A DNA stretch of 64,000 bases from Phyllobates terribilis. Lineage: Eukaryota. This document shows positions 641 through 50,361 of this stretch, one piece after another. The DNA lies in assembly GCF_046119375.1 (NCBI RefSeq), contig NW_027362769.1:397854001-397918000 (forward strand). Reading direction: 5' to 3'. The translations under genes were made by a program, and so were the position numbers. The notes below the pieces were generated by a model. It searched no databases. It had not been told where the DNA came from and saw only the letters and a list, made by a program, of their open reading frames with translations. Positions within the stretch are counted from its first letter, which is position 1, and each line of letters begins with the position of its first letter.

Positions 641-2195
641 AGTTGCAGCACCTGCTGATGCATGTTCTCAGGTCCCCTCCCATGTCATTGTAGAAGTATC
701 ACCATCATCCAAGTATAACTTTTCCATGTCATTTCAACAGTCAGAGTTGTCAGGCCAGAAACCGCCACACCTAGGTTACACAACACCTGGCAGCTAAAGT
801 GGATTCCTGAGATCTGAGAACTTCTGGGAAAGGAGGTGACCTGATGACTTCACTGATCCAGAATCCCGTCCTCTGCATCCATCGCCAGCAGAGTCATAGA
901 CATTTCTGTAGGATGTGTATAAGAGGTGACATAATTACTGGTACATGACATATTTTGCCTTCAATGGATATGAACTTGATTTCTTATCACAGCAGCTATA
1001 CCCAAAATTGGTCCCCAAAGAGCCAACAGGGGCAAACAGAAGTGATACAAGGCTTCCCCTGTTCCTTATGATCGAAGATGCAAGGAAGTCATGCGCCCAT
1101 TGCAACCTCCCAAGTTATTGGCCACATGGCAGTCTAGTTTTTATGGCAGCGTCATTAGTGAAGAGCATTGATGTCAATGTGTCAGATCCCGTGGAATCTT
1201 CTTGCCAGTACCAACCATTTTCTGGTGACTTGTCGTTAGGATTAGTGTTTTTGAAGATGATGCCATGAGTTAAAATGACAAATTGCAGATTGATCCTTCT
1301 ACATTTTGACCTGCAGCCTGGTTTGAGCTTCTATTGATGGGGATTCAGATATTTGCACTCGACAAAGGCATGAAAATCCAACACGATGGATGGACTTTTG
1401 GACAGATATTTACTGTTAACAGCTATCACACTTGCTGGTGGTAAAATGTTTTGGTATTCCATGGCGTCGTATTGCAACGCAGAACGAGAAAAATTTCCAA
1501 ATTTGTTCAGTCTTCCGTCGCTGGCCTCATGTGACTTGTCTAAAATAGTTGCGTGTCAGCAGTTTGCACCAATTTTTCTGGTTGTGCAAGTAGTCTGATG
1601 ATCGCTGTCACCACGTGACAGGTGTAGACCAAGCCTTAACGTCGAGAACATGAAGTCCTGGTTCTTGGTGGATACAAATGTGTAATATGGAAACAGCTGA
1701 ATGTCCCCTTATCCACCACGAGCAGGGGTCGGGATCACCATAAAAAGTGTTGACATGGACAACCGACCAGTATGCGATATGTGGGTTTAGTCTATTGAGC
1801 AGAAGAAGACCCACAAGTTTATCCACTCTTTGGAATGGGGACGGAAATGTCCGAAAATTTTTGTGTCTTTTTCAGCTGCAATCCATTAGCTCGATCAAAA
1901 AAAAAAACACAGTCTGCAAATCTTTTCTGTCCGGTTCAGAAAACGAATAGTGACCGGATCATAACGGATGGTCATCTGATAATGTCATCTATTAATGGAT
2001 CCGTTTTTTAAGCGCTGCGCAAGCCCAGAACGATAGAGGTGACAGAAACCAAACAAAACCGTTACAGACCGAACAAAAATGTTTGTATTTTTTGTTTTCT
2101 GTCCTGTGTGGACTTGTACAGATAATGGTTTGCTTAGCCGGATGGTTTATTCTATGCGTTTGTTTTATTTTTGCTGCACTTAAACTTTTACTTTA

Positions 2196-4073
2196 ACTTT
2201 TTTTTTTTTTTTAAAACTTTAATTTTTATTAAAGTATAAAATATAACAGACAACATTAGCAAATCAAATGATTCAAAAAGATGGGGTAAAAACATTTACC
2301 GTATTTTTTCGGACTATAAGACGCACCGGATCATAAGACACACCCCAAATTCTGGGCTGGAATATAGAAAAAAAAATATTTTTATAAGATGGGGTCCGTC
2401 TTATAGTCTTAATAGGTACAGTATCTTACCTGGGGGTCTGTGGAGCGAGGGTTACAGGAGGCAGGGTCCTTCCGGAATCCGGTGCTGCAGCAGCGGGGAG
2501 TTGCGATGGAGCAAGATTGTAGGGCCCTCCGTTCCCTCCCTCAGGAACCTGGCGGCTGCAGCAGAAGAGATGACTGGGGCCCGATGCCAGATTTGGGGCC
2601 GGGGCCTGGCTGAGGCCCAGTGTATGGCTGGGGGCCTGGCTGAGGGCCGGGGCAAGTGTTTGGCGATAGGGGCCTGCCTGCCTGAGGGCAGGGATCAGGG
2701 TCTGGCTGCATGCCGCCGAGGCCTGCCTGGGGACCGGGACCGATGGTGGTGGTGGCGGCAGCGGCAACAGCAAAGGAGGAGGAGGTGAGGTGCTGCAGGT
2801 GACTGGCTGGGGGCCGCGGGTGTCTGGCTGGGGGCCTGGCTGAGGGCAGGGGCAAGTGTTTGGCGATAGGGGCCTGCCTGAGGGCAGGGACCGGGGTCTG
2901 GCTACGTGCCGCCGAGGCCTGCCTGGGGACCAGGACCGATGGTGGTGGTGGTGGCGGCAGCAAAGAGGAGGAGGTGAGATGCTGCGGGTGGTAGAGCGGG
3001 AGGGAGATCCCGCTCTACCACCACCACAGGTACGCAACGTTCGGGCCATAAGACGCACCCCCCATTTTCCTCCCAAATTTGGGGGGGAAAAAGTGCGTCT
3101 TATGGTCCGAAAAATACGGTATATAACTAAGAAGACCTTCTTCGTCTTAATACCATCATACTTAATCTAATCAAAAGGGTCGGGATAGAACGAACCCATA
3201 AACAACCTCACCACTCCCCACCCTTAGGTCCTCCGGCATTCACAAAAATCCTTCCAAACCGTCCGAATCTTTAATATTTTACATCTTATAACAATACAGA
3301 CTATTTGACATAAGACAAAAGAGTCAAAGACAGAGGGGAAGGGCATTATAAACCAATCAGATATTATGTTGTGCCCAGTAATAGTCCCAAGGGGCCCAAA
3401 TTGTATGAAATAGAGCCACGCTATCGTTTAGAATGGCTGTCATGTATTCCATCCTCCTAATATCAGAAATCCTACTCCGTAATTCCCTACGAGGGGGGGG
3501 GGGGCACTCTTCTTCCAATGAAGAGCAATAAAACATCTGGCCGCTGTCAGCAAATGAAGTAGAAGTTTAGAGGAGTTTTTACCCATTCTCTTGGGGGTAA
3601 CATTCAGCAGATACAGAAGTGGGTTCCAGGGGAATATCAGTGAATAATATCTTCTGAAGAAGCAACCAAAAGATATGAAACTGAGAACCTCCCGGGGAAC
3701 CACAGCGCCAACAGATGTCCGGAAGCCGGGGATTAAGTTTCTGCAGAAGTTTCGAGGTGTGATACCAGAACATTAATATTTTGTACAATGTACATATGGA
3801 GGTTTTAGCCGCCTTATTCCAGATAGTCTGCCAACATTGAGGTGAAATATCCCTATTCAACAGCCTTTCCCATCTAGCCAAGTAGGAATGCTTGGAGAAA
3901 GAATTTTTATTAGGGGCACTAAGGATGCTATAGATATTAGATATCAAACCTTTAGTTGAGGGGCTTCTTCTACACATTATTTCAAATTCAGTTGGGCTGG
4001 AAACTTTAGTCGATCCGTAAAGGGTTGAGGCCAGATGTTTGATTTGTAGATATTGAAAAAATTCCTGATTGGT

Positions 4074-4075
<2 letters not shown>
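2196..4075 (-). mobile_element. L1/Tx1-type LINE 3' fragment (ORF2 C-terminus, 3' UTR, poly-A), interrupted by a MITE
   Basis: Minus ORFs 3579-4112 (...WERLL...CWRCGSPGGSQFHIFW) and 3440-3703 (LLTAARCFIALHWK) match the L1 ORF2 C-terminal cysteine-rich region. AATAAA (plus-strand tttatt near 2225) precedes a poly-A tail (plus-strand poly-T near 2196-2212). Confidence 0.85.
2299..3119. mobile_element. Non-autonomous Tc1/mariner (Tigger/pogo-like) MITE nested in the L1 3' UTR
   Basis: Terminal inverted repeats CCGTATTTTTTCGGACTATAAGACGCAC / GTGCGTCTTATGGTCCGAAAAATACGG with TA at 2297-2298 and 3120-3121. The GC-rich interior has a ~200 bp direct duplication (about 2630-2800 vs 2830-2990). Confidence 0.85.
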
Positions 4076-5104
<1,029 letters not shown>

Positions 5105-6769
5105 TACATGTACTGTGTGTGGGATACTATGTATACTATGTGCACAGACATCCGATGTTATATACAGGATAATATGTGACTGGTATATCATATACAATGA
5201 CCTTTTTTATTGTTGTGGGGTTCGAGTACATTGGTGACTTGATTGAGCAAATAAGTTTGAAAAAAAAAACCACACAAAAAGTATTTGGAGGTCCAGCGAC
5301 TATGTAGTGCCCTCTACTTATTTGTGTCCAGCTTTACTCCAGGTATTTGCTTTTTTTTTTTAGGAATGTGGAAATGCACAGCGCACCCTGCTTTACTGCA
5401 CATCTAAAAAACGTATCCCTGGATTAAAGCTAGTAATCCAGAAGCATAATGTGTACTGCGTCTGACCACGGCAATCTGTGGCTCTGCGGACTGGAACCTT
5501 TCAATTCCTTTTTTCGTGTGTTTTTTTTTTTTACACATGTACTCAATGGAGCGATTGCTGTGACTGTAAAGTGAACAACCTCTAGGCCGGGGTCTGAGGG
5601 CCGAATGTTCTCTCATCCGAGAGAATCAGGACGGTTATGGTAACGACACTCGGCTCAAACTGTCAGTCTGATCAGAGCGCCATCTTACTGTGATCCGACT
5701 GTCTGACATAAGGGAATCACAGGACAGGTGCACAGGAGACGGAGAACGTAATTTCTCCATCGTCTGTGTTCGCGGTAAACCGGTCTGCACTCAGATGACA
5801 TCCGAGTGCAGACCGATGTTTCACACGCACCCATAGATTAGTATATGTGTGGGTGATCCGAATATCGGAGCCACTTGTCTCCCACTCCTGAGAACAAATA
5901 CTGACCGAATACTGATAGTGGGGCCGTGTCCTAAATGTGTATATAGGGTAGCGTCAGTGTGTTAATATAGTCACCTTCCACCGTCTTCTCCAGTTTCCAG
6001 CGTCTTCTCCAGTTTCCAGCGTTGTCCCGCTCCTCGTCTGTATACGCACGCTGTCATGATTTGTGTTTTTAATGCAAATTAAATGCTTTTCTTTTTCAGT
6101 TTTTTTTTTCCAGTAACAGCAAAAGCTACAAGATTTCTGAAATCTCAGGCACGCACAGCTTGTCTTTATTCCTGACTGAATTTGAAACCTACAGCATGTC
6201 AATTCTTAATTTTTGCAGCATTTTTCACCCACAAGGAAGCGACGAAAAAGTGAAAAAATGCTGCAAGAGAATGCAACAGCTGAGTTTTTGAGAAGTTTTG
6301 GTGAATAAAACTCATTTTATTAATCATGCACTGTAGACAAAGCACACGTGTAATCTGCACCTAAAAAAAGCCACTAAAATGCTGAAAAATTGGTGTTTTT
6401 ACTGCTGAGAGAGCAGATTTTGGCTACAGGAAAAAAAAAACACTGCATGAGAACATGGCCTAAGCATTGTTTTGGTACCATATCTGTGTAGTAGTCTTGG
6501 TGCTATTACTGCTTCTATGTAGTTAGTTTGGTTCTAGTACCATTTCTGTGTAAGGACCATCAGATCTTTGGTGAGGTTGTTTCTGTCCAGAGTATGATAT
6601 ATTAAGCCCGCCTTAATGGTGAATTTCATATTGTAAAGGCAATAGGGATGGGCCTCTGCTCATTGGCCTCTGCTCATGGGCCACTGCTCATTGGCCTCTG
6701 CTCATGGGCCGCTGCTGTGTGCTTGGCCCCAGGCCAAAATTTGCCAGCCTGCCCCTGGAGGGGAGTCTG

Positions 6770-18800: not shown

Positions 18801-19561
18801 AGCCGCAAGGAGTAGATGACGGAGGTCCCTTCTGTTCACTGCTTCTTGTTATGACGTTTTTAGGGATCGTCTCTTTGGCTCAGCCAGTTCATGATGTCCG
18901 AGTCTTGGACGCTTTGTTCTTTTATTACTGAGGTTTGTTCAATGAAAACATAAACTTTCTAGTTTTATTGGTGTAAAAGTTTGTTCAGTAAATTTTATAG
19001 AGAATTTTTTTGCAGTTTGATTACAGCATAGTATGATAGGTTAGGGGTGTCAATATACTGACCACAACATGGTAACCCCGCCATCTGTACAAGGTGCCAG
19101 TACAGGGACCCCCATCCCACGTACAGGGAGGATCTGCTCTTTCGGATCCAGGGCTGAAGGATGTACCGGACCGTGCAGAAAATATATCATGTGGCCGGCG
19201 CTGAACGCTGCCAGACGGGAACAGTCCTTCATTTGTAAGAGGTGGAGACCAAGAGACCTTTCACCTCTCTTACAGATATTACAGCTCTCGCTCTTCTGGG
19301 ATTTCTACAAGATTTCGTAGGAATTTTTGCCCCTTCATGTGGGCAGCAGAGCGGTAGTGACTTTTCTGCCCTCTGCTTCTCAGCACTCGGACCCCCGCTC
19401 TGTAACGTTACGGGGTCTCCATCTCGTGGCCGAGTTGCTGCGGTTCCTTCCACTTCTCAATAATATCACTCACAGGTGATGGGGGAAGATTCAGGAGTGA
19501 CAAATATCACGGACAGACTATTACAGGATGGTGCTGGTATCAGTGAGCTCTGGGGGGGACG

Positions 19562-22125
19562 GATGTTACACACCGGGAAAGGGGGCGAGTGGCTGGATGT
19601 TAGATGCCGGGGAAGCGGGCCAGTGGATGGATGTTAGACGCCGGGGAAGGGGGCCAGTGGATGGATATTAGACGCCGGGGAAGGGGGCCAGTGGCTGGAT
19701 GTTAGACGCCGGGGAAGGGGGCCAGTGGCTGGATGTTAGACGCCGGGGAAGGGGGCCAGTGGCTGGATGTTAGACGCCGGGGAAGGGGGCCAGTGGCTGG
19801 ATGTTAGACGCCGGGGAAGGGGGCCAGTGGCTGGATGTTAGACGCCGGGGAAGGGGGCCAGTGGCTGGATGTTAGACGCCGGGGAAGGGGGCCAGTGGCT
19901 GGATGTTAGACGCCGGGGAAGGGGGCCAGTGGCTGGATGTTAGACGCCGGGGAAGGGGGCCAGTGGCTGGATGTTAGACGCCGGGGAAGGGGGCCAGTGG
20001 CTGGATGTTAGACGCCGGGGAAGGGGGCCAGTGGCTGGATGTTACACGCCGGGGAAGGGGGCCAGTGGCTGGATGTTACACGCCGGGGAAGGGGGCCAGT
20101 GGCTGGATGTTACACGCCAGGGAAGGGGGCCAGTGGCTGGATGTTACACGCCGGGGAAGGGGGCCAGTGGCTGGATGTTACACGCCGGGGAAGGGGGCGA
20201 GTGGCTGGATGTTATACACCGGGGAAGGGGGCGTGTGGCTGGATGTTATACACCGGGGAAGGGGGCGTGTGGCTGGATGTTATACGCCGGGGAAGGGGGC
20301 GTGTGGCTGGATGTTATACGCCGGGGAAGGGGGCGTGTGGCTGGATGTTATACGCCGGGGAAGGGGGCGTGTGGCTGGATGTTATACGCCGGGGAAGGGG
20401 GCGTGTGGCTGGATGTTACACGCCGGGGAAGGGGACCAGTGGCTGGATGTTACACGCCGGGGAAGGGGGCCAGTGGATGGATGTTAGACGCCGGGGAAGC
20501 GGGCCAGTGGATGGATGTTAGACGCCGGGGAAGGGGGCCAGTGGCTGGATGTTAGACGCCGGGGAAGGGGGCCAGTGGCTGGATGTTAGACGCCGGGGAA
20601 GGGGGCCAGTGGCTGGATGTTAGACGCCGGGGAAGGGGGCCAGTGGCTGGATGTTAGACGCCGGGGAAGGGGGCCAGTGGCTGGATGTTAGACGCCGGGG
20701 AAGGGGGCCAGTGGCTGGATGTTAGACGCCGGGGAAGGGGGCCAGTGGCTGGATGTTAGACGCCGGGGAAGGGGGCCAGTGGCTGGATGTTAGACGCCGG
20801 GGAAGGGGGCCAGTGGCTGGATGTTAGACGCCGGGGAAGGGGGCCAGTGGCTGGATGTTAGACGCCGGGGAAGGGGGCCAGTGGCTGGATGTTAGACGCC
20901 GGGGAAGGGGGCCAGTGGCTGGATGTTACACGCCGGGGAAGGGGGCCAGTGGCTGGATGTTACACGCCGGGGAAGGGGGCCAGTGGCTGGATGTTACACG
21001 CCGGGGAAGGGGGCCAGTGGCTGGATGTTACACGCCGGGGAAGGGGGCCAGTGGCTGGATGTTACACGCCGGGGAAGGGGGCCAGTGGCTGGATGTTACA
21101 CGCCGGGGAAGGGGGCCAGTGGCTGGATGTTACACGCCAGGGAAGGGGGCCAGTGGCTGGATGTTACACGCCAGGGAAGGGGGCGAGTGGCTGGATGTTA
21201 CACGCCAGGGAAGGGGGCGAGTGGCTGGATGTTACACGCCGGGGAAGGGGGCGAGTGGCTGGATGTTATACACTGGGGAAGGGGGCGTGTGGCTGGATGT
21301 TATACACCGGGGAAGGGGGCGTGTGGCTGGATGTTATACACCGGGGAAGGGGGCGTGTGGCTGGATGTTACACGCCGGGGAAGGGGACCAGTGGCTGGAT
21401 GTTACACGCCGGGGAAGGGGGCGAGTGGCTGGATGTTACACGCCGGGGAAGGGGACCAGTGGCTGGATGTTACACGCCGGGGAAGGGGGCCAGTGGCTGG
21501 ATGTTACACGCCGGGGAAGGAGGCCAGTGGCTGGATGTTACACGCCAGGGAAGGGGGCGAGTGGCTGGATGTTACACGCCGGGGAAGGAGGCCAGTGGCT
21601 GGATGTTACACGCCGGGGAAGGGGGCCAGTGGCTGGATGTTACACGCCAGGGAAGGGGGCGAGTGGCTGGATGTTACACGCCGGGGAAGGAGGCCAGTGG
21701 CTGGATGTTACACGCCAGGGAAGGGGGCCAGTGGCTGGATGTTACACGCCGGGGAAGGAGGCCAGTGGCTGGATGTTACACGCCGGGGAAGGGGGCCAGT
21801 GGCTGGATGTTACACGCCGGGGAAGGGGGCCAGTGGCTGGATGTTACACGCCGGGGAAGGGGGCCAGTGGCTGGATGTTACACGCCAGGGAAGGGGGCCA
21901 GTGGCTGGATGTTACACGCCGGGGAAGGGGGCCAGTGGCTGGATGTTACACGCCAGGGAAGGGGGCGAGTGGCTGGATGTTACACGCCGGGGAAGGGGGC
22001 GAGTGGCTGAATGTTATACACCGGGCAAGGGGGCGTGTGGCTGGATGTTACACACCAGGTAAGGGGGCGAGTGGCTGGATGTTACATACCGGGCAAGGGG
22101 GCGAGTGGCTGGATGTTACACACCA
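19562..22125. repeat. 34-bp G-rich minisatellite, about 75 copies
   Basis: Unit GGCTGGATGTTA(G/C)ACGCCGGGGAAGGGGGCCAGT with interspersed variants. Confidence 0.97.
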
Positions 22126-22412
22126 AGGGCAATGGAGGGGCAGATTTTATACACCGGGGCCAGAGGTTATACAGCAATGGGAGAGGTCAATGGAGCTGAA
22201 AATTATACATTGCCTCAAATATGGAACATTTAAACCGAAATAAATTAATAAATAATTCTTAATGACAAAATTGCCCACACCAGTTTCTCATTTTTACATA
22301 GTTGCTATAAAATGGTGTTGATAAATTTGGTGTAAAACAAGGCAATGTCGGCATAGAAGCAATGATACGTTCCACACTTTTTTTCCTGCAATCTCCACCC
22401 AACTATGTAAAC

Positions 22413-22788: not shown

Positions 22789-22904
22789 GTGTGAGCATCA
22801 GGGTCTAGATCTCTAACATCACATTCATGCACTTTGTTTTGTACTCTTCTTCCTTTACCAAATCAGATCATTTGTCGCAGTCTAACCCTCTGAATTTCTT
22901 GATA

Positions 22905-25900
22905 CACCAAGGTTACTTACCGGTAGCCGGTTTTTCCAGAACCCATGACAGCACACCTGAGAGAGAGGATCCGCCCTTCGAGGACAGGAAACCATCTGAA
23001 ATAAAAGGGTTAAATACAAAATCCAACACCACATCAAACAACACCCAACAAACGTGCACACCCATATGGTGAGAAAGAAGAGGGGGAATATAGGGGTGCT
23101 GTCATGGTTTCTGGAAAAACCGGCTACCGGTAAGTAACCTTGGTGTTTTCCCTTCACCCATGACAGCACACCTGAGAGAATTTTGAGGGACCAACGCTTG
23201 CAGCACCCTTCTACCAAAGGTTAAGTCAGATAGGCAGGATAGATCCAAACGGTAGTGTTTGAAAAAGGTAGATGGTGATGACCATGTAGCGGCCTTACAG
23301 ATCTGATCTATCAATACCTCTGCCTTCTTTGCCCAGGAGGTAGCCACGGCTCTGGTGGAGTGAGCCTTGATGCCGTCAGGGATCGGGGTGTTACTAGTCG
23401 AGTAGGCTAAGCAAATGGCCTCCCTAATCCATCTGGTTATAGTTGCTTTTGTCACCCGATAGCCAATCCCTGTTCGTAGCCTTCCAGGGGAGTAGGAAGG
23501 GTTATGTCTCCACTGGCTAGTTACTTTTATGTATTGTAATAGAGCTCTTCTAACGTCAAGATTATGAAACTTTTGTTCCCCTGGGGTCTTTGGGCTGTTA
23601 CAAAAGGAGGGCAGAACAATTTCCTGAGATCTATGAAACTTGAGCGCAACCTTAGGAAGGTAGGCTGGATCAGGCCTCAATACCTCAATATATTTCTGTA
23701 TTTGGAGGATTTATGGATAGGGTCTGCAAATCACTTACTCTACGGGACGATGTTAAAGCTACCAAAATAATTGTTTTGAGAGTTATGTATTTTGCAGACA
23801 ACTCCTGAACTGGTTCAAAGGGTTCCATAGTTAGGGCGTCAAGTGCTAAATTTAGGTTCCATGGAGGAACTCTGGGTATTGAGACTGGCCTAGATCTACA
23901 AGATTTAATTAAAATTGTAATCCATTTATTGGCTGCGAGATTACGGTTGTATAGCGCACCCAAGGCAGAAACCTGGACCTTAAGTGTACTGGCAGCCAGA
24001 CCTAACTCAAACCCCTTCTGTAAGAACTCCAGAATGGAATTAATTGAAGGTTTTTGGCTTAATGGCTTTCCTAGGAAATCTAAAAATTTTCTCCATGTTC
24101 TACCATAGATTTTGGTGGTTATGGACTTTCTACTTCTTAATAGAGTAGACACTAAACCTGATGAAAAAACCTTTGCCCCTCAATATTGCCCTCTCAAATT
24201 CTACGCTGCTGGGTGGAAACCCTTCGCTTGAGAGTGGAATATTGGTCCCTGAGCTAGAAGGTCCGGGGTCTCTGGTAGGATCCATGGGACTGATCGTGAC
24301 ATCATCCTCAAAACGGAGAACCATGGTCTCTTTGGCCAGAAGGGGGCTATGAGAATCACTCTCGCTTGATCCTTCTTGATCTTCCTCACTACCAGAGGTA
24401 TCATAGCTATTGGAGGGAAGGCATAGGCCAACCTGAAGCTCCAAGGAATCTGGAGAGCATCTATTGCCAATGGGTTTCCCCTTGGGTCTAGTGAGCAGAA
24501 CTTCTCCACGTTCTTGTTTTTGTCTGTGAACAAATCTATCTCTGGTAGACCCCACAGCTGTACTATCTGATGGGATATACTGCGATTCAGGGCCCATTCT
24601 CCTTGTCTCAACTTGTTGCGGCTTAGGAAGTCTGCTCTCGTGTTTTCTATGCCTCGAATATGTAGCGCCGTAAGAGATAGGAGATTTTGCTTCGCTATTT
24701 GAAAAAGCCTGCCTACTGCTTCCAGAAGAGAATAAGATCTTGTTCCCCCCTGGTGGTTTATGTAAGCCACAGTGGTTCTGTTGTCAGACATAACCCAAAC
24801 ATGACGACCCTGGAGTAAAGGGAGGAAGCCTTCTAAAGCGTTCCTCACTGTCCATAGCTCTTTTAGATTTGACAACCCCTTTTCCTCTAGGAATGACCAA
24901 GGGCCTTGAATCATGTGATTTTCTAGGTGTGCGCCCCACCCTGAGTTGCTTGCATCGGTCGTGATGATGTTTTGTAATGGTGTGTCCCACTGGACCCCAA
25001 AGATAAACTTGACCTGTCTATCCACCACAAGAGGGCGTTCCTGGTTCGCAAGGAGAGATGCACCTTTCCTTCTAAATACCCTTTTAACAATCTTTGCGCT
25101 GACAAGATTTCCCACTGAAGGTTTCTTGTGTGAAATTGGGCCCACTTGACTGCCGAAATGCATGATGTTAGAGTACCTAGCAGGGACATAGCCTTCCTTA
25201 AGGACATGTCTGGGGTGTGTATGGCTGCTGAGACCAATTTTGTGACTGTCTATTTTGCTGTCGGCTAGAAGACAAGTCTGACACTCGGAGTTTAGAGTAA
25301 ACCCCAGAAAGGCCTGGACCCTTGCGGGTTCTAGCCTTGATTTTTAGGTATTGACCATCCAGCCTAAGTTCTGCAACACAGCCATGACTTGTTCAGTTTT
25401 GAAATGCAGTGGCTCTCTGAATTCCCCACTATAAGGAAGTTGTCCAGATATGGTATTATAACTGTATTTTGAATGCAAAAAAAAGCTGTCACCTCGGCTA
25501 TCAGCTTGGTGAATACCTTTGGCGCAATCGACAACCCGAAGGGAAGAGCTTGGAACTGGAAGTGTCTGCAACTTCCTTGAATGTAAAGAGCAAAGCTTAG
25601 ATACTTTTGATGATCTGGGTGAATTGGGACGTGATAATACGCATCTTTGAGATCTATCACTGCCATAAAGCAATTGTGAAAAAGCAGTTTTATTGTTGAA
25701 TTTATCGATTCCATTTTGAATGTATGGTTGTCTACAAATCGGTTGCGGCCTTTTAGATTTATAATAGTTCTGAATGAACCGTCCGTTTTTTTTTATTAGA
25801 AAGAGAGGGGATTAAAATCCCCTTCCTTTTTGACTGACTGGAAATTCCATAGCACTCGTTTGTTCAACAGGCTCAAGATCTCTGATTCTAGGGCCAGCTG

Positions 25901-28178
25901 TTCATCTGGGGATTTTCTTACAGGAGTTATCACAAGCGAGCGGCGTGGCTGCTGAAGGAATTGAATCCTTAGTCCATCTGTCACTATGTTGAAGACCCAG
26001 GGACTGGAGGAAATGTTTTCCCAGGCCTGAACAAAATGAGAAAGTCTTCCTCCAACTTGTGGCCTGGCATCATTGTGGAGCTTTTAGGAGGCGGCAGAGG
26101 GACCTCCGAACATATATCCGGACTCTTTCTTGTTCTTGAAATCCCACTTTCTTTTTTCTCCCGGGGGCGACCGCTACTAAATTTCCCCCTCCGAAAATAG
26201 GTCTACCTGGCGTCCGCCGAAAACCCAGGGAACCTTCCTTATTTGTCGCTCACTTTCTCAAGGACATCGTCCAATTTTTTGCCAAAGAGAAATTGGCCGT
26301 CACAGGGGATAGAACACAATCTAGACTTTGATTGTATGTCCCCATGGCATCCCTTGAGCCACAGAGCTCGTCTAGCCGCGTTTGATAGACCAGCCGACCT
26401 AGCTGCCAGTTTTACTGAGTCAGCACAGGTATCTGCTAGGAAGGCAGCCGCACCATGTAATAGGGGGAGGTTGGCTAGAATTTTTTCCCTTGAGGTCTTT
26501 CTATCTTTCAGCTGATCTTCCAACTGCTGTAACCATATCATAAGGGAACGAGCGGTACATGTTCCTGCAATGTCCGGCTTTAGACCTCCTGCTGCGGATT
26601 CCCAAGTATGCTTTAAAAAGGTTTCCGCCTTCTTGTCTAAGGGGTCTCTAAGTACCCCTGAGTCTTCAAGAGGGAGTGCCGATCTTTTTGATGATCTAGA
26701 CACCGCAGCGTCAATTTTTGACACCTTATTCCAGTTTTCAGAGTCCTTTAGGTCAAAGGGATACTTCCTCTTTGAGGATGAAGGCAAGGCTCCTACTTTC
26801 TCAGGCTTCCTCCATTCTCTATTGATAAGTGCCTGGACCTTCGTGTTCACCGGGAAGGTGCGTTTTTTCTTTTTTTTTTAACCCTGCAAACATGATGTCT
26901 TCGAGGGACTTAACGGATTTATCTTCCTTTAACCCCATAGTGGTTCTGACAGCCTTTACCAATCTATATGTGTCTTCTATAGGGAAGCATGGTCTCCCCC
27001 CTCTATCACTGTCTGAAGAGGATGAGGCCCCACTACGACACTGTCCATCCGATAACACAGAGGAGTCAGAAGAAGGATCAGATAGGATTTTTCTTCTTTT
27101 CCTCAAAATTGTTGTAAGGGAACCCTCTACCTCTGATCTGATCTGATGACAGACCTGAGGCTAGCTGCAAAATCCGGGGTACCCTCACAGATAGTTTTCT
27201 GAATGCAGTCCGAGCAGAGCTCCTTCTGCCAGTCTATCGCTAGAGGGCATTTGGACATCGCACATTCCCTGTTCCGCTTCGTGGCGGTAACTTTCCTGGG
27301 CTCCTCCTGGTAATTTAAACACACAATAGGAGTCCCATTAGCAAATATATCTAGTGACATTCACGAAGATCACTCACCCTGCCACTGCGGATATCGGAAT
27401 TGAAGACTGTTTCAGGATAAGCGACGCATCCCTCCTGGAGACTGTGGAGTCCTGAGAAGCTTTACCCTTCTGACTGGGACGACTGCTCCTCCTTCTGCTG
27501 GACCCTCTAGATCGGTCAGCAGACGGAGGTGGTGATGAAGGTGGTAGCGACTGTGGCCGTAGCGACAGCTGCTCCATGTCAGACATTATGTCAGGACTTT
27601 GAGCAGCGTTCTGACCCCAGGTGCTCCTTTATATAGGGAGATGGGCGGGGTCAGCCACCTCCAGGTCCCTGCGGTCTCCTACTGGTGATTAGCCCCCCCC
27701 CCCACCCCACTTCCGCAGCCGCCGCCAGCATTTTGCCATGCTGGCCGGCATTATACAGGGCGCCGCATCTTTTCTCCGGCGCCGCCCCCTGACATCACCG
27801 AGGCACGCCCCTACCCAGCGTGCCCCGCGCCATGACGTCAGAGGCGGCAGGGGGAGGGCGGCGCGGCGGTGTACGGAAGCCCAGGACTCCTGCACCGCCT
27901 GCGCCCACACGTGCAACAGGTCCCTGGGGAACATGCGGACGGCGCTACCAGCACCTGAAGGCCGGCGCCACGGACAAGAGCCCGCTCTTCCAGCGTCGGG
28001 ACAGGGCTGGGTAAGTTTCTTCAGCATGACAGCCGCCTGATTACTTCATGAGGATTCCCATCAAGGACAGGAAACCAACTGAAGCGAGGGAGAGGTGCCG
28101 CCCTTTTATTTCAGATGGTTTCCTGTCCTAAAAGGGCGGATCCTCTCTCTCAGGTGTGCTATCATGGGTGAAGGGAAA
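22905..28178 (-). mobile_element. Full-length but degenerate DIRS1-type retrotransposon (DIRS-A)
   Basis: gag 27586-26239; RT 25984-25344 (DLKDAYYH, YLDNFL); RNase H/methyltransferase-like 25163-24201 (TDASNSGWG, AYAFPP); tyrosine recombinase 24152-23102 (HSTRAVATSW). ITRs of about 68 bp near 22945-23010 and 28100-28168; internal complementary region about 23095-23180. Confidence 0.95.
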
Positions 28179-31100
28179 AAGCCTTAGTTACTTACCGGTA
28201 ACGGGATTTTTCGGAGCCCATGACGGCACCACGAGAGAGAGGATCCGCCCATCAAGGACAGGAAACCTACAGGTTAAAAAGGGCGGCACCTCTCTCCCGC
28301 CTCAGTTTAAGTTAACAGAGCATGAGAGGACCGCCAAGGTTAATTACAAGACAAAAAACACAATATTCATTTTAAGCCAATGACTTTAACTAACTTTCCC
28401 AGAGGGTGCAAAAAAGGAAAATAACCTTACGGGGGTGCAAAACACCAGTGCAGTGAGGGAATATAAGGGTGCTGTCATGGGCTCTGAAAAATCCTGTTAC
28501 CGGTAAGTAACTAAGGCTTTATTCGTACTCCCATGACAGCACCACGAGAGAATTACAGAGACGAAGGAGATTAGGGAGGGACCACAGCCTGAAGCACCCT
28601 TCTCCCAAAGGTGAGATCAGAGGAATCACCCAAATCTAACCTATAATGCCTATAGAAGGTGGAGGGAGAAGACCAGGTGGCAGCCTTACATATGTCTTAG
28701 GGGTTTCCATCGGTCTTCTCGGCCCAGGAAGTTGCTACTGCTCTGGTGGATTGTGCCCTCAACCCCTCCGATACTTCCTTATCTCCCGAAGAGTAGGCGA
28801 GGGTGATGGCCTCTCTAATCCACCTCGAAATTGTAGATTTTGAAGCTTTACAACCTTTCCTAGCCCCCTGATGGCATATAAATAGGGAACTATCTTTCCT
28901 AAAACTCTGAGACTTCCAGATATTTAAGTACGCACCTCCTAACATCTAATGTGTGTAGTTTCTCCTCTTTCTGATTTTTAGGGGGAAAACAAAAAGTTGG
29001 AAGATTTACCTCTCGAGTCCTATGAAATCGTGAGACTACTTTTGGAAGAAAGGCCGGGTCAGACCTTAGTACAATTCTATCATCCAGAATTCGAGTAAAC
29101 AGTGGGGATACAGAAAGAGCCTGTATGTCACTTACTCTTCTTGCCAAAGTTAGGGCTGTTTTAATAAGAATAATTTTATGGGAGGCTGAATGTAGGGGCT
29201 CGAAGGGAGGGTTAGTCAAGGCATTTAAGACCAGGTTTAAATCCCAGGGAGAGGGTCTGGATTTAATAATAGGTCTACACCTGAAAGAGGCTTTTATAAA
29301 CCGTGCTACCCAATAATTAGCCGCTATATCAAAAGAAAATAAGGCTCCTAAAGCCGAAACTTGTACTTTCAATGTACTAGTGGTTAGGCCCTGTTTTAAA
29401 CCCCGCTGTAGAAATTCTAGTATCTTCCCAATAGGGGGCTCATCCTCTGGTTTGAATTATGAAAAGGACAGGAACTTCCTCCAAGTTCTAGCGTAGATGC
29501 GGGTAGTAACGGGCTTTCTGCTACATAGGAGAGTGTTTACTAAATTTGTGGAAAACCCCTTTGCTGGTTAACAGCGCCCTTTCAAATTCCATGCCGTTAA
29601 ATGGAGATTTGAGGCTGGAGAATGGGAAACCGGACCCCGAGTGAGAAGGTCCGGAATGACCCAGGGGTCTGATATTAACATTCTCCGGAGACAAGAGAAC
29701 CATGGTCTCTTGGGCCAAAAGGGGCATATGAGGATCATTCTGGCCTTGTCCGCCCTGATCTTCCTTAGGACTGACGGAAGCAGGACCATAGGAGAGAATG
29801 CATACGCCAAAGGAAACTCCCAGGGAATCATGAAGGCATCCACTGCCAGGGGCCTTTCTCTGGGGTTTAGAGAACAAAACATTGCCACCTTTCGATTGTA
29901 TTTTGTCGCAAACAAGTCCACTGTTGGAAGACCCCACATTGCCACAATCTTGGAGAATATCTGAGGGTTCAAGGACCATTCTCCTTCTTTTAGGGAATTG
30001 CGGCTGAGAAAATCTGCTCTGACGTTTTCTTTTCCTCTTAGATGAACAGCAGAAAGGGAGAGAAAATGATCTTCTGCTTTCTGAAGAAGTCTGTCTGCTA
30101 CTCTCATTAAGTCTTTTGAACGGGTTCCCCCTTGATGATTTATATAGGCTACTGAGACTTGATTGTCTGAGAGTATACGGACATCCTGGTCCTGTAAATA
30201 TACAAGGAACCCATTGAGCGCATGAAGAACCGCCAAAAGTTCCTTAACATTCGAGGAAAACTGTACCTCATTGGTTGACCAGGTCCCCTGAATTAAGTTA
30301 CCTTCAAAATGAGCTCCTCAACCTGTAGAACTTGCATCCGTAGTCAAGACTGCAGTAGGTTTACTTTCCCAAGGGACTCCCCTAGAAAGATTAGTGTATA
30401 CCAACCACCAACGAAGGGATTGTAAGGAGCGAGGGGCCAAGGTAAACTCCTGGTCTAGATACCCATCTGGAATTGAGTCGTTATATAATATATCCCATTG
30501 AAGAGCCCTTGAGTGAAAGTAAGACCAACGCACCACGGAAAAGCTCGAGGTCAGGGTCCCCAATAATGACATGGCTCTACGGAGTGACAGATGGATTTTT
30601 GCAATCTTTTCCTCTGACAAATGGCAGAACTGTCTTTCTGAATCTAAAATGACCCCCAGGAACTGTTCAGCCTTTTGTGGTGTCAACCTAGATTTTTCCA
30701 GATTTAGAAACCAACCTAGGCCTTCTAGGACAGAAATTGTCACTTGAAGGTGGGCTTCGCATTGTACAAAGGAGTCCCCCACTATCAGGAAATCATCGAG
30801 GTAAGGGATTATCAAGATGTCTTTTTCTCTTATATGGGCCATAACCTCTGCCACTAGTTTGGTAAAAACTCTCGGGAATATTGTCAACCCAAAGGGAAGG
30901 GCGGTATACTGGAAGTGTTTAACTACCCCTTTTATTTTAATGGCCACCCTCAAATACTTTTGATAATCCCTGTGAATGGGAACATGGTAATATGCGTCTT
31001 TAAGATCCAAGACCACCATATAACAGTGGGGAAAAAGTAATTTTATTGCCGTTTTTAATGATCCCATTTTAAGAAAACTATTTAAGGATCTTAAATTTAT

Positions 31101-32950
31101 GATTGTCCTGAAGTACCCATCTGGTTTGGGGACCAAGAAGAGCGAGGAGAAGAATCCGTGTCCCTCTTCTGTTTTCGGAACCTCAATCAGGACGTTTTTG
31201 TCTGTTAGGTCTTGAATTTCCGATACGAGGGCAGTCTGCCGCTCTGGGGAGGAACTAGAGGGAATAATCATGAATCTTCTGTAAGGAAGGGCTTGAAATT
31301 GAAATTTAAGACCAATTAGGCTCAAAATCCAACTGCTATGTGTAATACGTTCCCAAGCCGGGAAAAACAAAGACAATCTCCCTCCCACCTGGACAGATTG
31401 TGATTCCCCTGGCTTCTGCTCATCTTTGGAAGAACCACCAAAGAGTAGGCCTCTACCTTTGCGACCTCTTTCTTCAAATTTTTCCTGTTCTCTAAAAAAT
31501 CTTCTTCGGACAAATTTCTTTCTCCGAAATGATTTCTTAAGAGAGGGTAGAGATACAGACGGAAACCCCTTCTTAGGATCTCCAGCTTTTTCCAAAAGTT
31601 CATCCATGGTTTGGCCGAAAAGATATTCCCCCTCACAAGAAATTGTACAAAGTCTAGATTTCGTTTTTACATCTCCAGGCCAGCACTTAAGCCATAGGGC
31701 TCATCCTCAAACGCGTCAGCAAGAAAGGCCGCTGCACCCTGGACTAGGGGAAGGGAAGAAATAATCTCCTTCCTGGAGACACCCTTCTTCAGTTGGTTGT
31801 CTAGCTGTTCCAGCCAGACCATCAGGGCTCTGGATGTGCAGGTGGCAGCTACTGCTGGTTTCAGGGCTCCTGCAGTAGTCTCCCATGCACCTTTCAAAAA
31901 GGTATCTTGTTTTCTGTCCAGGGGGTCTCTTAAAGCTCCCATGTCATCGAAGGGGAGAGAAGACTTCTTTGATGCCTTAGCAATGGCAACATCAAGCCTT
32001 GCAGCCTTTGACCAAGAGGAACTTGTGGCATCAGATACCTCCTTTTGAAGGAGGGAGGAATGCTGCCCTTCCTCTCTGGCTTTTGCCACTCTCTATCAAT
32101 AAGATCTTTTAGTATTCATGGGGAAGCATCTCTTCTTTTTCTGACCTAATCCCCCAAACATTACATCCTCCAAAGATTTTTCTGGTCTAGTGTCCACAAC
32201 GCCCACGGTAGTTCGGACAGCTTTTACCAAGGCATCAACCTCATGCAGAGGAAAACATTGTCTATCAGATTCGCTATTAGAGGAAGAGAGAAAGTAGGAA
32301 GAAATGTCTGAGATATCGGGAGTCTGAGCCTGGTCGACAGTCCTGAGGAGAATGCCTGGCCTCAGAATTCCCTCGCAAAGCCTTGCCTATTTCTTCTTTA
32401 ATTAAAGTCTTTAGACCTAAGGAAAACCCTAGGGTTTCTTCCGTCATCACCCTGTCAATACAAGCTTGGCACAATTTAACATATGCATCAGGGAGCGGAT
32501 GGCTGCATAGGGCACATTCCTTATGTTTTGATTTAAATGAACATTTTTGGTCTGAAAAAATTATAGACAGAAGGAGAAGAATTAGTAGAACTTTCACAAA
32601 GATTCCACTTACCCCCTGGAATATGTGGTACCGTAGAAACAGAGGAATCCTTCTTAACCGGCGGAGAATCACGCCAAACAAAAGGACCTTCCTTCCTACT
32701 TTTTGCATTGAACTTCCTAGTTGAAGGACTGGACCCAGACCGGGAACGACGTTGCACCGCCTGTTGTGAGGGCTCCCCAGAGGGCTGCTCCACCAGCAGT
32801 TGTTCTTGCTGAGGTGATAGCTGCTCTTGTGAATCTCCCATATTGAAAAAACAATGGGCTGGGAAGCACCTCTGTATGCTGCCAGGTCCTTTTTATACTG
32901 GCCATACCTGGTACCTGTATTTCAAGTAGTCACCAGATACAACGCAAACC
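28179..32950 (-). mobile_element. Second, divergent DIRS1-type retrotransposon (DIRS-B), lacking its 5' ITR
   Basis: gag 32841-31667; RT 31607-30318 (LDLKDAYYH, YLDDFL); RNase H/methyltransferase-like 30236-29568; tyrosine recombinase 29372-28697. 3' ITR and extension about 28180-28310; internal complementary region about 28465-28550. Confidence 0.93.
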
Positions 32951-33719
32951 TCTAGGACGGGGTGATTGCTCCAAAGTTAACTTTGGGGACCTTCAATAAA
33001 AGAGAAGCCTATTGTCCACATATACAGGAAGAGCTCACCCGCCTGTGCGCCAGAAGAAAATGGGAGCAACGCAAAAAAAAAAGGGCTACATATCGGCCCA
33101 GAAGTAGGATATAGATTTCTCTAGACTAAAGCCAGACAAAGCATCAGAGTCCGGCTGCTGCACCTGCACGTTGGCCAACAAGTTTACAGTCTGTATTAAT
33201 CAAGGATATAGTATGGTTAAGACTCGGGCATGTGAGGACAAGGTCATTACGTGAGCAGACGAAGCAATAGATCCCAGTTCTGGGCGTAAAGCCTGAATGG
33301 CACTCGTTTTATGTCTGGCAGAGGGCCATCTCTGGTTCACATTCAGATTTGCCCTTACATGTAATTTTTTTGTAGCTATCGATCAGTATCTTGAAAGATG
33401 CAGTTCCCAAAATGGGGGTCACTTAAATATGCATCTTTCCTCCTTCTGCCGTTCCCAGTATCAGGTTGCAGACACTGCAGAAAGCTTTCACTTTGCATTG
33501 GTTCCTCCGCTTATTCGTTTCTTGCCCCCTACCCTCACGGATGAGGGGTGCAGTTGTGACCGCTGGGTTGGGAGAATATTTTAACACCTTAAAAAGCTTT
33601 TGCAAACCTGAAACCTCCTCAAAAGATTCCCCCTAAAGTCCACACTTGTTCCTTCATTTCTGAGGCTGTTGCAGTCGGGACAACATGGTTTTCCTACTCG
33701 CCGGGTTACAGACATTTAA

Positions 33720-34051
33720 AGGGGTATTCCAATCTCATAGATCCCCTCCCAATATGTAGTAGGTGTAATATTAGCAAATTCATCCGATTAGAAATGTAGT
33801 ATAGTTTTTCTGATTCACTATGTCTTCTTCCTCACGTGTGCGCATTGCAGGACCTTTAGGTATCCACTAGCAACTAGCTGTCACTATATCAGTGGACGTA
33901 ACCATGGATACCTAAGGTCCTGCAATGCCAGCACATGAGGAAAGACATAGCGAATCAGAAAAACTATACTACATTTTTAATTGTAGGTATTTGCTAATAT
34001 TACTACACCTACTACATATTGGGATGGGATCTTGGAGATGGGAATACCCCT
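33720..34051. mobile_element. Kolobok/T2-type foldback MITE
   Basis: TIRs AGGGGTATTCC / GGAATACCCCT with TTAA TSD at 33716-33719 and 34052-34055. The two halves are largely reverse complements. Confidence 0.85.
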
Positions 34052-34649
34052 TTAATAACCAAGGTGAGGTGAGATATTAGAAGAGAAATTCATATTTTCA
34101 AAAATACTAATGTATTTTATTTTTTTTTAAACTGATTAATGGGCGACAATTTACAACAAATACAATGTCAGGAAAACGTGTGAATCAGTTGGATGAGTAA
34201 TTTCATTACTGAAGTTCTTCCCACGTAATGGGACGCGTCACATTCTCACTACCGCACCTGAATGCTTCATATTTCTGCACGTCGTCATCTGGTGCCATCA
34301 TGGGGCCCGGAGCCGATGCCTGACCCTGCCCGACTGGCAACTCCGGCTGAGCAATCCTTCCTGCCACTGCTCATCTACCAGCTGAAAATGGGATTAATTC
34401 ACAAACGTCACAAAGACAGAAGGGCAGCGGGGGGGGGGGGGGGGGGGGGGCAGTACGACCAAGGGGCAGCGGGGGGGGGGGGCAGTACGACCAAAGGGCA
34501 GCGGGGGGGCCAACTACGACCAAAGGGTCATCGCTCGACCAGTTCTATCCTCAGCACTCACAGCTCCAGGTTCATTGCTCATCTGCATGGTTAACAGACA
34601 AAACTGATGTGGAACCGCTACAAACCCCACAGCCAACTGCATGATCCAG

Positions 34650-48215: not shown

Positions 48216-50361
48216 CAGTTGTGCTCAAAAGTTTACATACCCCAGCAGAATTTTTCCTTTCTTGGCCTTGTTTCAGAGAATATGAATGATAACAAAAAAT
48301 TTTTTTTTGTCTCCACTCATGGTTATTGGTTGGGTGAAGCCATTTATTGTCAGTCTACTGTGTTTTCTCTTATTAAATCTTAATGACAACCAAAAACATC
48401 CAAATGACCCTGATCAAAAGTTCACAGACCCCAGTTCTTAATACCGTGTATTGCCCCCTCTAACATCAATGACAGCCTGAAGTCTTTTGTGGTAGTTGTG
48501 GATGAGGTTCTTTATTTTCTCAGATGGTAAAGCTGCCCATTCTTCTTGGCAAAAAGCCTCCAGTTCCTGTAAATTCCTGGGCTGTCTAGCATGAACTGCG
48601 CGCTTGAGATCTTCCCAGAATGGCTCAATGATATTGAGGTCAGGAGACTGAGATGGCCACTCCAGGACCTTCACTTTGTTCTGCTGTAGCTAATGTACTA
48701 GCGTTAATTCATCGCACTCTCTGTAGGGATAGACTCTTAGTAGTGGTGAGTAGCGGCGCGGGCTGCGCCTTGCTTATGGCAGCCCGCGCCGCTACTCCCC
48801 ACTACCAGCTCAGCCCTGCCGTCGGCCAGTCACTGACTTCTACTAAACTACTGAAACCAGCATTACCTGGATCACTAAGAGTCTATCCCTACAGAGATCT
48901 GACTCCTGGTCTTAAGAATAGCCTAAATCCTCAACCCCTACATCAGCCAGCAGCAATAGCGACTGAATTGAATAAGGCCAATTTAGGCCGAAACGTCCCA
49001 ATATATTGTCGCCACCCATCACTGGTCTGATTAATCTAATTTATGCTCTATCAATGAATTACACTTTATCACAACTAAGAGAATGCGATGAATTAATGCT
49101 AGTACATTGTCTTGGGCTCACCAGTCCATTGCATCTGCACCTCGCCTAATGACAGAGTGCACGCCAATTTATCTACTTATCTGTTGTAGCTAATGACAGG
49201 TCGACTTGGCTTTGTGTTTTGGATCGTTGTCATGTTGGAACGTCCAAGTACGTCCCATGCGCAGCTTCCGAGCTGATGAGTGCAAATTTGCCTCCAGTAT
49301 TTGCTGATAACGTGCTGCATTCATCTTTCCTTCAGCTTTTACAAAGTTTCCTGTGCCTTTGTAGCTAACACATCCCCAAAACATCAGCGATTCACCTCCG
49401 TGCTTTACTGTAGGAATGGTGTTCCTTTCATCATAGGCCTTGTTGACCTCTCTCCAAATGTAACTTTTATGGTTGCGGCCAAAAAGTTCAATTTTGGTCT
49501 CATCACTCCAAATTACCTTGTTTCAGAGGTTTTGAGGCTTGTCTCTGTGCTGTTTGGCGTATTGTAGGCGAGATACTTTGTGGCATTTGCGCAGTAATGG
49601 CTTTCTTCTGGCGACTCGACCATGTAGCCCATTTTTCTTCAAGTGCCTCCTTATTGTGCATCTTGAAACAGCCACACCGCTAGTTTTCAGACAGTCCTGA
49701 ATTTCAGCTGATTTTATTTGTGGGTTTTTCTTTGCATCCCGAACAATTTTCCTGGCAGTTGTGGCCGAAATGTTGTTGGTCTACCTGACCGTGGTTTGGT
49801 TTTTACAGAGCCCCTGGTTTTCCATTTGTTAATTACAGTTTGAACGCTGCTGACTGGCATTATCAATTCCTTGGATATCTTTTTGTATCCCTTTCCTGTG
49901 TTATACAGTTCAACTACCTTTTCCCGTAGATCCTTTTTACAATTCTTTTGCTTTCCCCATGAGTCACAATCCAGAAACATCAGTGGCTGGATGAAAGATG
50001 CAAGAGTCTGTCTGGATCCCAGAAACTCACTCAGCTTTTATGCACACCCACTGATTACAAACAAACAGGTTACAGGTGAGGATGTTACCTTTAGTAGCCA
50101 TTCAACCCCATTTGTGTCAAATTCTGTGCATATTATCAGGCCAAAATCACCAGGGTATGTGAACTTTTGATCAGGGTCATTTGTATGTTTTTGGTTGTCA
50201 TTATGAGTTCAAAAAAGAAAACACAGTAGTTTGACAATAAATGGCTTCACCCAACCGATAACCATGAGCAGAGAAAAAGTTTTTTTGTTATCCATATTCT
50301 CTGAAACAAGGCCAAGAAAGGAAAAATTCTGCCGGGGTATGTAAACTTTTGAGCACAACTG
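48216..50361 (-). mobile_element. Full-length inactive Tc1 transposon with an internal insertion
   Basis: TIRs CAGTTGTGCTCAAAAGTTTACATACCCC at both ends; TA on the left (48214-48215), mutated to AA on the right. Transposase pieces 49980-49714, 49384-49190 (FQHDNDPKH) and 48674-48438 (WPSQSPDLNIIE). Confidence 0.95.
48694..49185. mobile_element. About 490-bp structured non-coding insertion, possibly Penelope-related
   Basis: Flanked by a ~15-bp duplication CTG(C/T)TGTAGCTAATG; contains three inverted-repeat pairs and a GGCC-loop-GGCC-GAAACGTC motif. Confidence 0.6.

What the first reader, a model, noticed from the sequence alone, without database searches (positions are those of the whole stretch)
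22905..28550. Two different DIRS retrotransposons fused head-to-tail with zero spacer: possible recombinase targeting of DIRS ends
Seen: at 28176-28180 the 5' end of DIRS-A (minus TTTTCCCTTCAC) abuts the 3' end of DIRS-B (minus ...GTAACTAAGGCTT) through a shared T-run. Each element's own internal complementary region confirms these are the true termini (A: CCTTGGTG-TTTT-CCCTTCAC; B: TAAGGC-TTT-ATTCG). The two families are divergent, yet both 3' extensions carry TACCGGTAAGTAAC (with the palindrome TACCGGTA) 6-7 nt before the T-run. Established: DIRS elements integrate as circles using a tyrosine recombinase and make no TSD. Inference: the end of a resident DIRS mimics an attachment half-site, so unrelated DIRS families may stack in tandem, integron-like.
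Basis: partly seen in the sequence, partly recalled or inferred. Interest (0 to 1): 0.7.

Follow-up and report, generated by a model that had tools for sequence, protein, structure and literature searches.

The report
DIRS retrotransposons reusing each other's sites
Two related jumping genes sit end to end with no gap, most likely because the younger one landed on the short run of Ts left at the front of the older one; six such joins were found in this genome, where these elements also land close to each other's ends and face the same way far more often than chance, a clue to how their little-studied insertion enzyme may pick its sites.

Summary
The junction is real: the 3' end of DIRS-B meets the 5' end of DIRS-A in a shared T5 (28176-28180), and each element's ICR confirms its ends. 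It recurs: six zero-spacer tail-to-head joins between different families were found genome-wide (about 0.5% of A-type heads; about 300-fold over random). The tail motif is common to nearly all DIRS families here (7451 copies). B is younger than A, so the target was A's head, not B's tail. All six joins use heads that fit the general target rule T-(T/A)-T-pyrimidine (158 of 160 tails); none uses a TTT-A head. Best reading: conservative recombinase insertion rebuilds a good T-run at a site that was already hot, and later DIRS reuse it. Different families share the same T-runs in host repeats, neighbours crowd within about 400 nt of DIRS ends, and they are co-oriented out to about 30-100 kb. Active recruitment to ends is not excluded (heads about 8-fold over internal controls, P 0.01-0.07). 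DIRS-into-DIRS insertion is known from Dictyostelium, and this scan noted tandems and hotspots on other DNA before. No integron-like arrays.

The parts
22905..28180 (-). DIRS-A, both ends present, ORFs broken by stops and frameshifts; the older element (resident)
   Evidence: ITR/ICR self-matches; Pfam LAP2alpha, RVT_1, RT_RNaseH; nearest copy 92%
22902..22904 (-). A right junction trinucleotide, reads TAT
   Evidence: TAT in 7 of 160 tails
22905..23009 (-). A 3' ITR and tail; TACCGGTAAGTAAC at 22912-22925
23092..23179 (+). A internal complementary region (tail-TTTT-head; T-run 23146-23149)
23102..24179 (-). A tyrosine recombinase region in two frames (HSTR motif and downstream Tyr in the C-terminal piece)
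   Evidence: translation; 58% to the open YR frame of L135; no Pfam hit for the window pieces
24201..25811 (-). A reverse transcriptase / RNase H, broken
   Evidence: PF00078 E 3e-12, PF17917 E 1.5e-4
26239..26877 (-). A gag piece (LAP2alpha domain)
   Evidence: PF11560 E 1e-16
28101..28175 (-). A 5' head and ITR (head TCCCTTCAC after TTT, a pyrimidine-rich right arm)
   Evidence: head scores 12.5 average target positions
28176..28180 (-). Shared T5 run: the zero-spacer junction
28181..28313 (-). B tail and 3' ITR; TACCGGTAAGTAAC at 28187-28200
28468..28551 (+). B internal complementary region (tail-TTT-head; T-run 28518-28520)
28177..32922 (-). DIRS-B, 5'-truncated by about 600 nt, ORFs broken; the younger element (newcomer). 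YR piece 28899-29456, RNase H 29568-30317, RT 30318-31700
   Evidence: 87.8% to copy L142 positions 607-5418; break near 32922; Pfam; nearest copy 96%

Best explanation
The window holds two ordinary DIRS1-like retrotransposons joined at one shared T-run, and the younger (B) most likely inserted, through its tyrosine recombinase, into the T-run that the older (A) had rebuilt at its own 5' end. Shown: the join, the target rule T-(T/A)-T-pyrimidine, the absence of TSD, the crowding and co-orientation of DIRS neighbours, and the sharing of the same T-runs in host repeats by different families. Inferred: because insertion is conservative, every DIRS leaves a T-run at each end. At the head the original left arm of an already favoured site is kept, and in families A and C the right arm becomes pyrimidine-rich, so the site stays a top-grade target inside a small region (about 400 nt outward) that DIRS of all families favour in one orientation. 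A zero-spacer join would then be the limiting case of site reuse, not docking on a tail half-site.
For: Target rule in 158 of 160 tails. All 6 joins are on TTT-T heads (5 A, 1 C); 0 on TTT-A heads. A small matrix trained on other families' flanks scores A heads 12.5, A tails 2.8, B heads 0.6. Order: B 96% against A 92%; upstream equal or younger in 5 of 5. At join J2 both outer flanks run straight into each other in 13 of 14 empty copies of the host repeat, and the T count balances (6+4+3 = 5+4+4). Cross-family flank pairs in the same repeat share the site within 6 nt in 14 of 40 cases. Tail-to-head neighbours lie at about 0, 14, 57, 125, 247, 330, 348 and 397 nt and none at 410-2000 nt among 307 ends; newcomers fall on both sides of the resident. 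The join rate matches the rate per T-run in that outward zone (expected 2.5, range 0.8-5.9, observed 4). Legal T-runs just inside the ends are cold (0 at ~5900 ITR sites, 1 at ~1800 lICR sites), which fits a property of the host site better than attraction to the element.
Against: Heads are hit about 8-10 times more than matrix-matched internal sites (CI about 1.1-116; P 0.008-0.02, or 0.03-0.07 without the discovery locus), which active recruitment also predicts. Why neighbours are co-oriented out to 30-100 kb is unexplained; there is no strand skew in flanks at 500-1500 nt. Counts are small. Most sampled ends come from one chromosome arm, and 42 ends from other chromosomes showed no neighbour. 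Ages rest on nearest-copy identity and are close for two joins; the sixth join could not be dated. J2's T count fits either order of insertion. The 400-nt boundary was chosen after seeing the data.
Confidence: 0.6

Rival explanations
1. Resident DIRS ends actively recruit incoming circles of any family, for example through recombinase bound to the ITR motifs shared by all families, and the newcomer is delivered to the nearest legal T-run in the same orientation.
For: Neighbours concentrate within about 400 nt of ends, all tail-to-head (8 pairs against 0 farther out). Heads exceed internal controls about 8-fold. The ITR core is shared across families. An unchecked scan note reports 6-17-fold self-targeting of end signals in another genome (e1-10275645).
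Against: Legal T-runs 90-450 nt inside the ends are cold. Co-orientation extends to tens of kb, beyond the reach of an end. Shared hot T-runs exist in host repeats with no DIRS nearby.
Confidence: 0.25
2. One reading: the resident's tail motif TACCGGTAAGTAAC mimics an attachment half-site and unrelated families stack like integron cassettes.
For: Natural left flanks resemble the tail motif slightly more than background T-runs (mean 4.37 against 4.11 matches of 10, n = 91; weak AA at -7 to -9). Joins are far above random.
Against: The newcomer is upstream. No joins on B, D or F heads. No foreign B, C, D or F head after an A tail among the hits. ICRs were partners in none of the heterologous hits examined. 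Only 1 of 307 ends is a join.
Confidence: 0.05
3. Two circles of different families fused by recombination and integrated together as a dimer.
For: The T count at J2 also fits a dimer; three joins have the T4 that a dimer would give.
Against: The window join, J3 and the L274 join have T5, one more than circle-circle fusion gives. Partners differ in age in J1-J3.
Confidence: 0.05
4. The join arose by deletion between two nearby co-oriented elements, or is an assembly artefact.
For: Co-oriented neighbours are common. No read or contig bridging the window join was available.
Against: J2's outer flanks are contiguous in 13 of 14 empty repeat copies, so nothing was deleted there. Six joins on five chromosome-scale contigs involve five family pairs.
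Confidence: 0.05

Closest known systems
DIRS1-like retrotransposons (PMC3266345, passages; Xenopus DIRS, 10.1101/2021.08.05.455354, passages)
   Same: ITRs, ICR matching both ends, gag-RT/RH-YR order, insertion by recombination at a 3-bp junction with no TSD, TTT at both ends as in Xenopus.
   Different: Here the target rule is longer (pyrimidine at +4, TAT tolerated on the target side), and zero-spacer joins between families are counted. The passages read do not mention tandems (0 hits for 'tandem' in PMC3266345; one unrelated hit in the Xenopus preprint).
Dictyostelium DIRS-1 self-insertion (Cappello, Cohen and Lodish 1984; seen only as a title in a reference list, and as cited in PMC7192593 and PMC3950715, passages)
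   Same: DIRS elements land in or beside other DIRS far more often than their genome share predicts.
   Different: Here most copies are dispersed (only 7 of 267 sampled ends ran straight into a DIRS body), the partners are different families, and neighbours are co-oriented and crowd just outside the ends.
DIRS1 insertion hot spots in nototheniid fish (PMC6387122, passages)
   Same: Vertebrate DIRS1 elements accumulate in local hot spots.
   Different: That work is at FISH resolution; here the pattern is at base level with orientation.
Integron cassette arrays (recalled, not tested)
   Same: Tyrosine recombinase inserts a unit at a site next to an earlier unit, in one orientation.
   Different: No fixed platform site, joins are rare (about 0.5% of A heads), no multi-unit fused arrays seen, and each element carries its own recombinase.

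Membership tests
DIRS1-like retrotransposon | Inverted terminal repeats with a 3' extension | tested here: met
   A: 22941-23009 against 28101-28169, 95.7%. B: 3' ITR present, 5' ITR lost.
DIRS1-like retrotransposon | ICR complementary to both ends with a circular junction | tested here: met
   23092-23179 and 28468-28551
DIRS1-like retrotransposon | gag, RT and RNase H | tested here: met
   PF11560, PF00078, PF17917 in A; PF00078, PF17917 in B; all three in relatives L135/L140
DIRS1-like retrotransposon | Tyrosine recombinase instead of integrase | tested here: inconclusive
   No Pfam hit in window pieces; PF00589 only at E 0.02 in the open frame of L135, which is 58% identical to A's piece; HSTR motif (named in PMC3266345) visible; no PDB hit
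DIRS1-like retrotransposon | Methyltransferase domain after RNase H | tested here: inconclusive
   PF05869 Dam at E 0.013 in relative L140 only
DIRS1-like retrotransposon | Insertion at a trinucleotide without TSD | tested here: met
   J2 empty site against filled site, T count conserved; T-(T/A)-T-Y in 158 of 160 tails
Integron-like cassette array | Fixed attachment platform that receives most insertions | tested here: not met
   1 of 307 sampled ends is a join; targets are dispersed T-runs
Integron-like cassette array | Arrays of three or more fused units | tested here: not met
   None in the window or in the 3 join loci read 10 kb each side; 2 joins were read only 1.5-2 kb each side
Integron-like cassette array | Recombinase recognises the resident site | not testable with these tools
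   Needs binding or recombination assays

The most novel reading that the evidence does not exclude
Vertebrate DIRS recombinases recognise the conserved ITR arms of resident elements of any family and deliver new copies, co-oriented, to or within a few hundred bases of those ends, so DIRS build polarised multi-family clusters by cross-family end recognition.
Probability: 0.25. Interest if true: 0.7.

Novelty: new variant of a known kind. Interest (0 to 1): 0.45.

Why it matters
The target specificity of DIRS tyrosine recombinases has not been studied experimentally (PMC7192593, passage). This genome gives a base-level rule (T-W-T-Y with favoured arms), shows that different families share hot sites, and shows strong co-orientation and end-proximal crowding. 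These are direct predictions for the Dictyostelium retrotransposition assay or an in vitro recombination assay. If ends actively recruit other families, DIRS would have a self-targeting route that builds polarised clusters, relevant to how hosts trap and silence them. If it is site reuse, DIRS pairs mark germline insertion hot spots. The single join in the window is, by itself, a rare by-product.

Tried and rejected
Reads: 22 runs listed, none RNA on record ('no RNA holder listed'); four laid runs were contigs and none bridged the join, so no evidence either way. Cappello 1984 could not be read. Pfam and PDB gave no clear YR call. Strand skew of flanks as the cause of co-orientation: none at 500-1500 nt. 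Right-arm mimicry of the head motif in natural targets: none. L125, L048, L331 and the 12 identical hits L359-L370 first looked like joins or insertions and were dropped as rearrangements of one element's own ends; L134 is a local duplication. My first pass mis-called L274 as an opposite-strand neighbour and missed L028's divergent partner; both were corrected. A null based on nested insertions in the sample (expected 1.0, or 3.1 with the matrix) first seemed to explain all joins, but genome-wide control sites gave a lower internal rate, so I do not rely on it. Same-family tandems could not be counted, because short patterns cannot tell them from ICRs. 15 of the 45 hits were not fetched and were judged own-family ICRs from the matched text only. 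Nine literature searches listed no paper on zero-spacer tandems or co-orientation of DIRS; the Goodwin and Poulter papers were not among the listings and may describe this; no supplements were opened.
Full report
OBSERVATION. The window lies at G000:C9:397854001-397918000 in a 10.6-Gb genome. On the minus strand, B's 3' ITR and tail run through five Ts (28180-28176) straight into A's 5' head and ITR. Each element's ICR spells its own tail-T-run-head, so these are true ends. Both carry RT and RNase H domains, A also a LAP2alpha gag domain. The YR region is broken but 58% identical to an open frame in a relative, which has a weak PF00589 hit. A is complete at both ends and ends in TAT; B lacks its first ~600 nt. 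The tail 14-mer has 7451 exact copies and was seen in all common families, so sharing it says nothing special about this pair.

IT RECURS. A DNA search with the join found two more full-length matches among 40 scored candidates. Patterns for a foreign tail before a given head gave: A head, 4 joins in 12 hits and 1 in 9 for tails with a changed motif; C head, 1 in 30 examined of 45; B head, 0 in 4 and 0 in 11; D head, 0 in 10; F head, 0 in 4. The other hits were ICRs, apart from L331 (see noticed). The six joins are B-A (window), C-A' (C2:192647402), C-A (C5:450749892), D-A' (C11:389041678), D-C (C7:17750421) and G-A (C1:253810703). There are about 890 A heads (1915 hits, 46 of 99 checked were heads), so 5 joins is about 0.56%. 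C and B head motifs have 1131 and 988 hits, about half of them heads by inference; zero joins on about 490 B heads is not significant alone. Random use of legal T-runs predicts 0.013 for the 4 joins, or 0.05 with a target matrix.

TARGET RULE. Of 160 tails of the common families, 158 are followed by T-(T/A)-T-pyrimidine. Positions +5 to +7 lean to pyrimidine, and left flanks carry extra A at -7 to -9. Heads of A and C begin TTT-T and fit; heads of B and D begin TTT-A and do not. A matrix from 79 non-A right flanks and 38 B/D left flanks scores A heads 12.5 average positions, A tails 2.8 and B heads 0.6; it is small and rough. Site choice goes beyond this rule: among 204 tails, 14 of 40 cross-family pairs that lie on the same strand of the same host repeat share the site within 6 nt; 24 further pairs lie on opposite strands.

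ORDER AND CHEMISTRY. B's nearest copy is 96% identical, A's 92% (40 candidates scored each). Against the loci in hand, the upstream element had equal or higher nearest-copy identity in 5 of 5 joins, clearly in three; the sixth could not be dated. So the newcomer entered at the resident's head (inference). At J2 both outer ends survive, and the left and right flanks run into each other across a T-run (T5 in most copies) in 13 of 14 empty copies of the host repeat. The three junctions hold 6+4+3 Ts, equal to the site's 5 plus 4 from each circle junction. That is conservative insertion of both elements at one site, with no TSD and no deletion. It does not fix the order. T5 at three joins is one more than fusion of two circles would give.

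NEIGHBOURHOOD. I sampled 307 ends (204 tails, 103 heads), mostly from C1; 27 loci were picked by likeness to the join's tail, and a few ends are segmental duplicates. One is a zero-spacer join (L274). Tail-to-head neighbours lie at about 0, 14, 57, 125, 247, 330 (a divergent candidate), 348 and 397 nt. None lies at 410-2000 nt although 275 kb of flank was read there against 122 kb nearer (P about 1e-4, boundary chosen afterwards). No head-head or tail-tail neighbour was accepted; one weak opposite-strand match at 590 nt was dropped. By nearest-copy identity the newcomer was upstream in about four of these pairs and downstream in three. Seven of 7 tails that run straight into a DIRS body do so in the host's orientation. 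Adjacent elements on C1 are co-oriented 13:1 below 30 kb and 8:2 at 30-100 kb after removing two duplicate pairs (pairs within a cluster are not independent), and 33:35 beyond 100 kb. Twenty random 10-kb stretches held no DIRS. Against this, 42 ends from the later family searches, spread over many chromosomes, had no nested or near neighbour.

IS THE END SPECIAL? I counted tails in front of four conserved T-runs inside elements. ITR site: 0 (about 8900 sites, two thirds sense by inference from the library). lICR T5: 1 true insertion (L358; 3595 sites, half sense). A leader: 0 (268 sites). B gag: 1 (L371; 380 sites). A heads are hit 7.5-10.5 times more often than these controls (CI about 1.1-116; P 0.008-0.02; 0.03-0.07 without the discovery locus). 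The controls themselves are about 10-fold over random (2 against 0.19). The join rate is, however, what the outward 400 nt predicts per legal position (2.5 expected from the five pairs known then, 4 observed). So the head T-run behaves like part of the hot outward zone, while sites just inside the ends are cold.

MECHANISM. Established model (PMC3266345, PMC7192593, passages): ends are restored on the ICR, and the recombinase exchanges a 3-bp junction with a matching target. Inferred here: A used a favoured site, left T5 at its head and TAT at its tail, and supplied a pyrimidine-rich right arm; B later used the rebuilt run; B's 5' part was lost afterwards. I put site reuse in a shared, polarised hot region at 0.6 and active recruitment to ends at 0.25. 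The cause of the long-range co-orientation is open.

PRIOR WORK. DIRS-1 insertion into DIRS-1 is known from Dictyostelium (cited; original not held). TTT ends are described for Xenopus DIRS, and hot spots for fish DIRS1. Nine searches listed no paper on inter-family zero-spacer joins or co-orientation; older subscription papers are not covered and no supplements were read. This scan has noted a similar tandem, ICR insertions and a repeat hotspot in other genomes; these are unchecked notes, not support.

VERDICT. Real, recurrent and above chance, but rare and best read as reuse of a rebuilt target by a known class of element. The added value is the measured target rule, the shared hot sites, and the end-proximal, co-oriented crowding. 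Interest 0.45.

Noticed in passing
L331/L332 (G000:C9:333627717-333628047): A DIRS 3' end runs on past the T-run as a copy of its own right ICR and about 30 nt beyond, sharing a private variant with that ICR; looks like over-extension on the ICR template.
   Followed up: partly
L048 (L157/L158) and L125: Rearranged 3' ends: L125 looks like a duplication of the ICR-spacer-ITR block through the direct repeat between rICR and 3' ITR; L048 has an ITR piece joined to the lICR side and could be a same-family ICR insertion followed by deletion.
   Followed up: partly
L359-L370 (unplaced contigs): One small palindrome built from A-family end sequences occurs with the same surrounding text 12 times on unplaced contigs; one B tail with the same flank is likewise repeated in L049-L057.
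   Followed up: no
G000:C1:18.25-18.62 Mb: Eleven DIRS end markers of several families, all on the minus strand; one pair is a duplicate.
   Followed up: partly
L115, L128, L214, L304: Four insertions from two DIRS families in the same T-run of one host repeat; five more such shared sites are clear. The host repeats were not identified.
   Followed up: partly
window 28057-28083 and 28110-28136: A second, inverted copy of the ITR motif about 105 nt into the element forms a small hairpin with the 5' ITR; present in most A-type and some other copies.
   Followed up: no
window 19425-22243 and from 52859: Long tandem arrays with 34-nt and 41-nt units.
   Followed up: no
window 33716-34055, 48216-50361, 58599-60232: A 340-nt palindromic element and two elements with long inverted arms, probably DNA transposons.
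   Followed up: no
L274 and L028: Two divergent DIRS families (called G and H here) with changed tail or head motifs, missed by the common patterns.
   Followed up: partly
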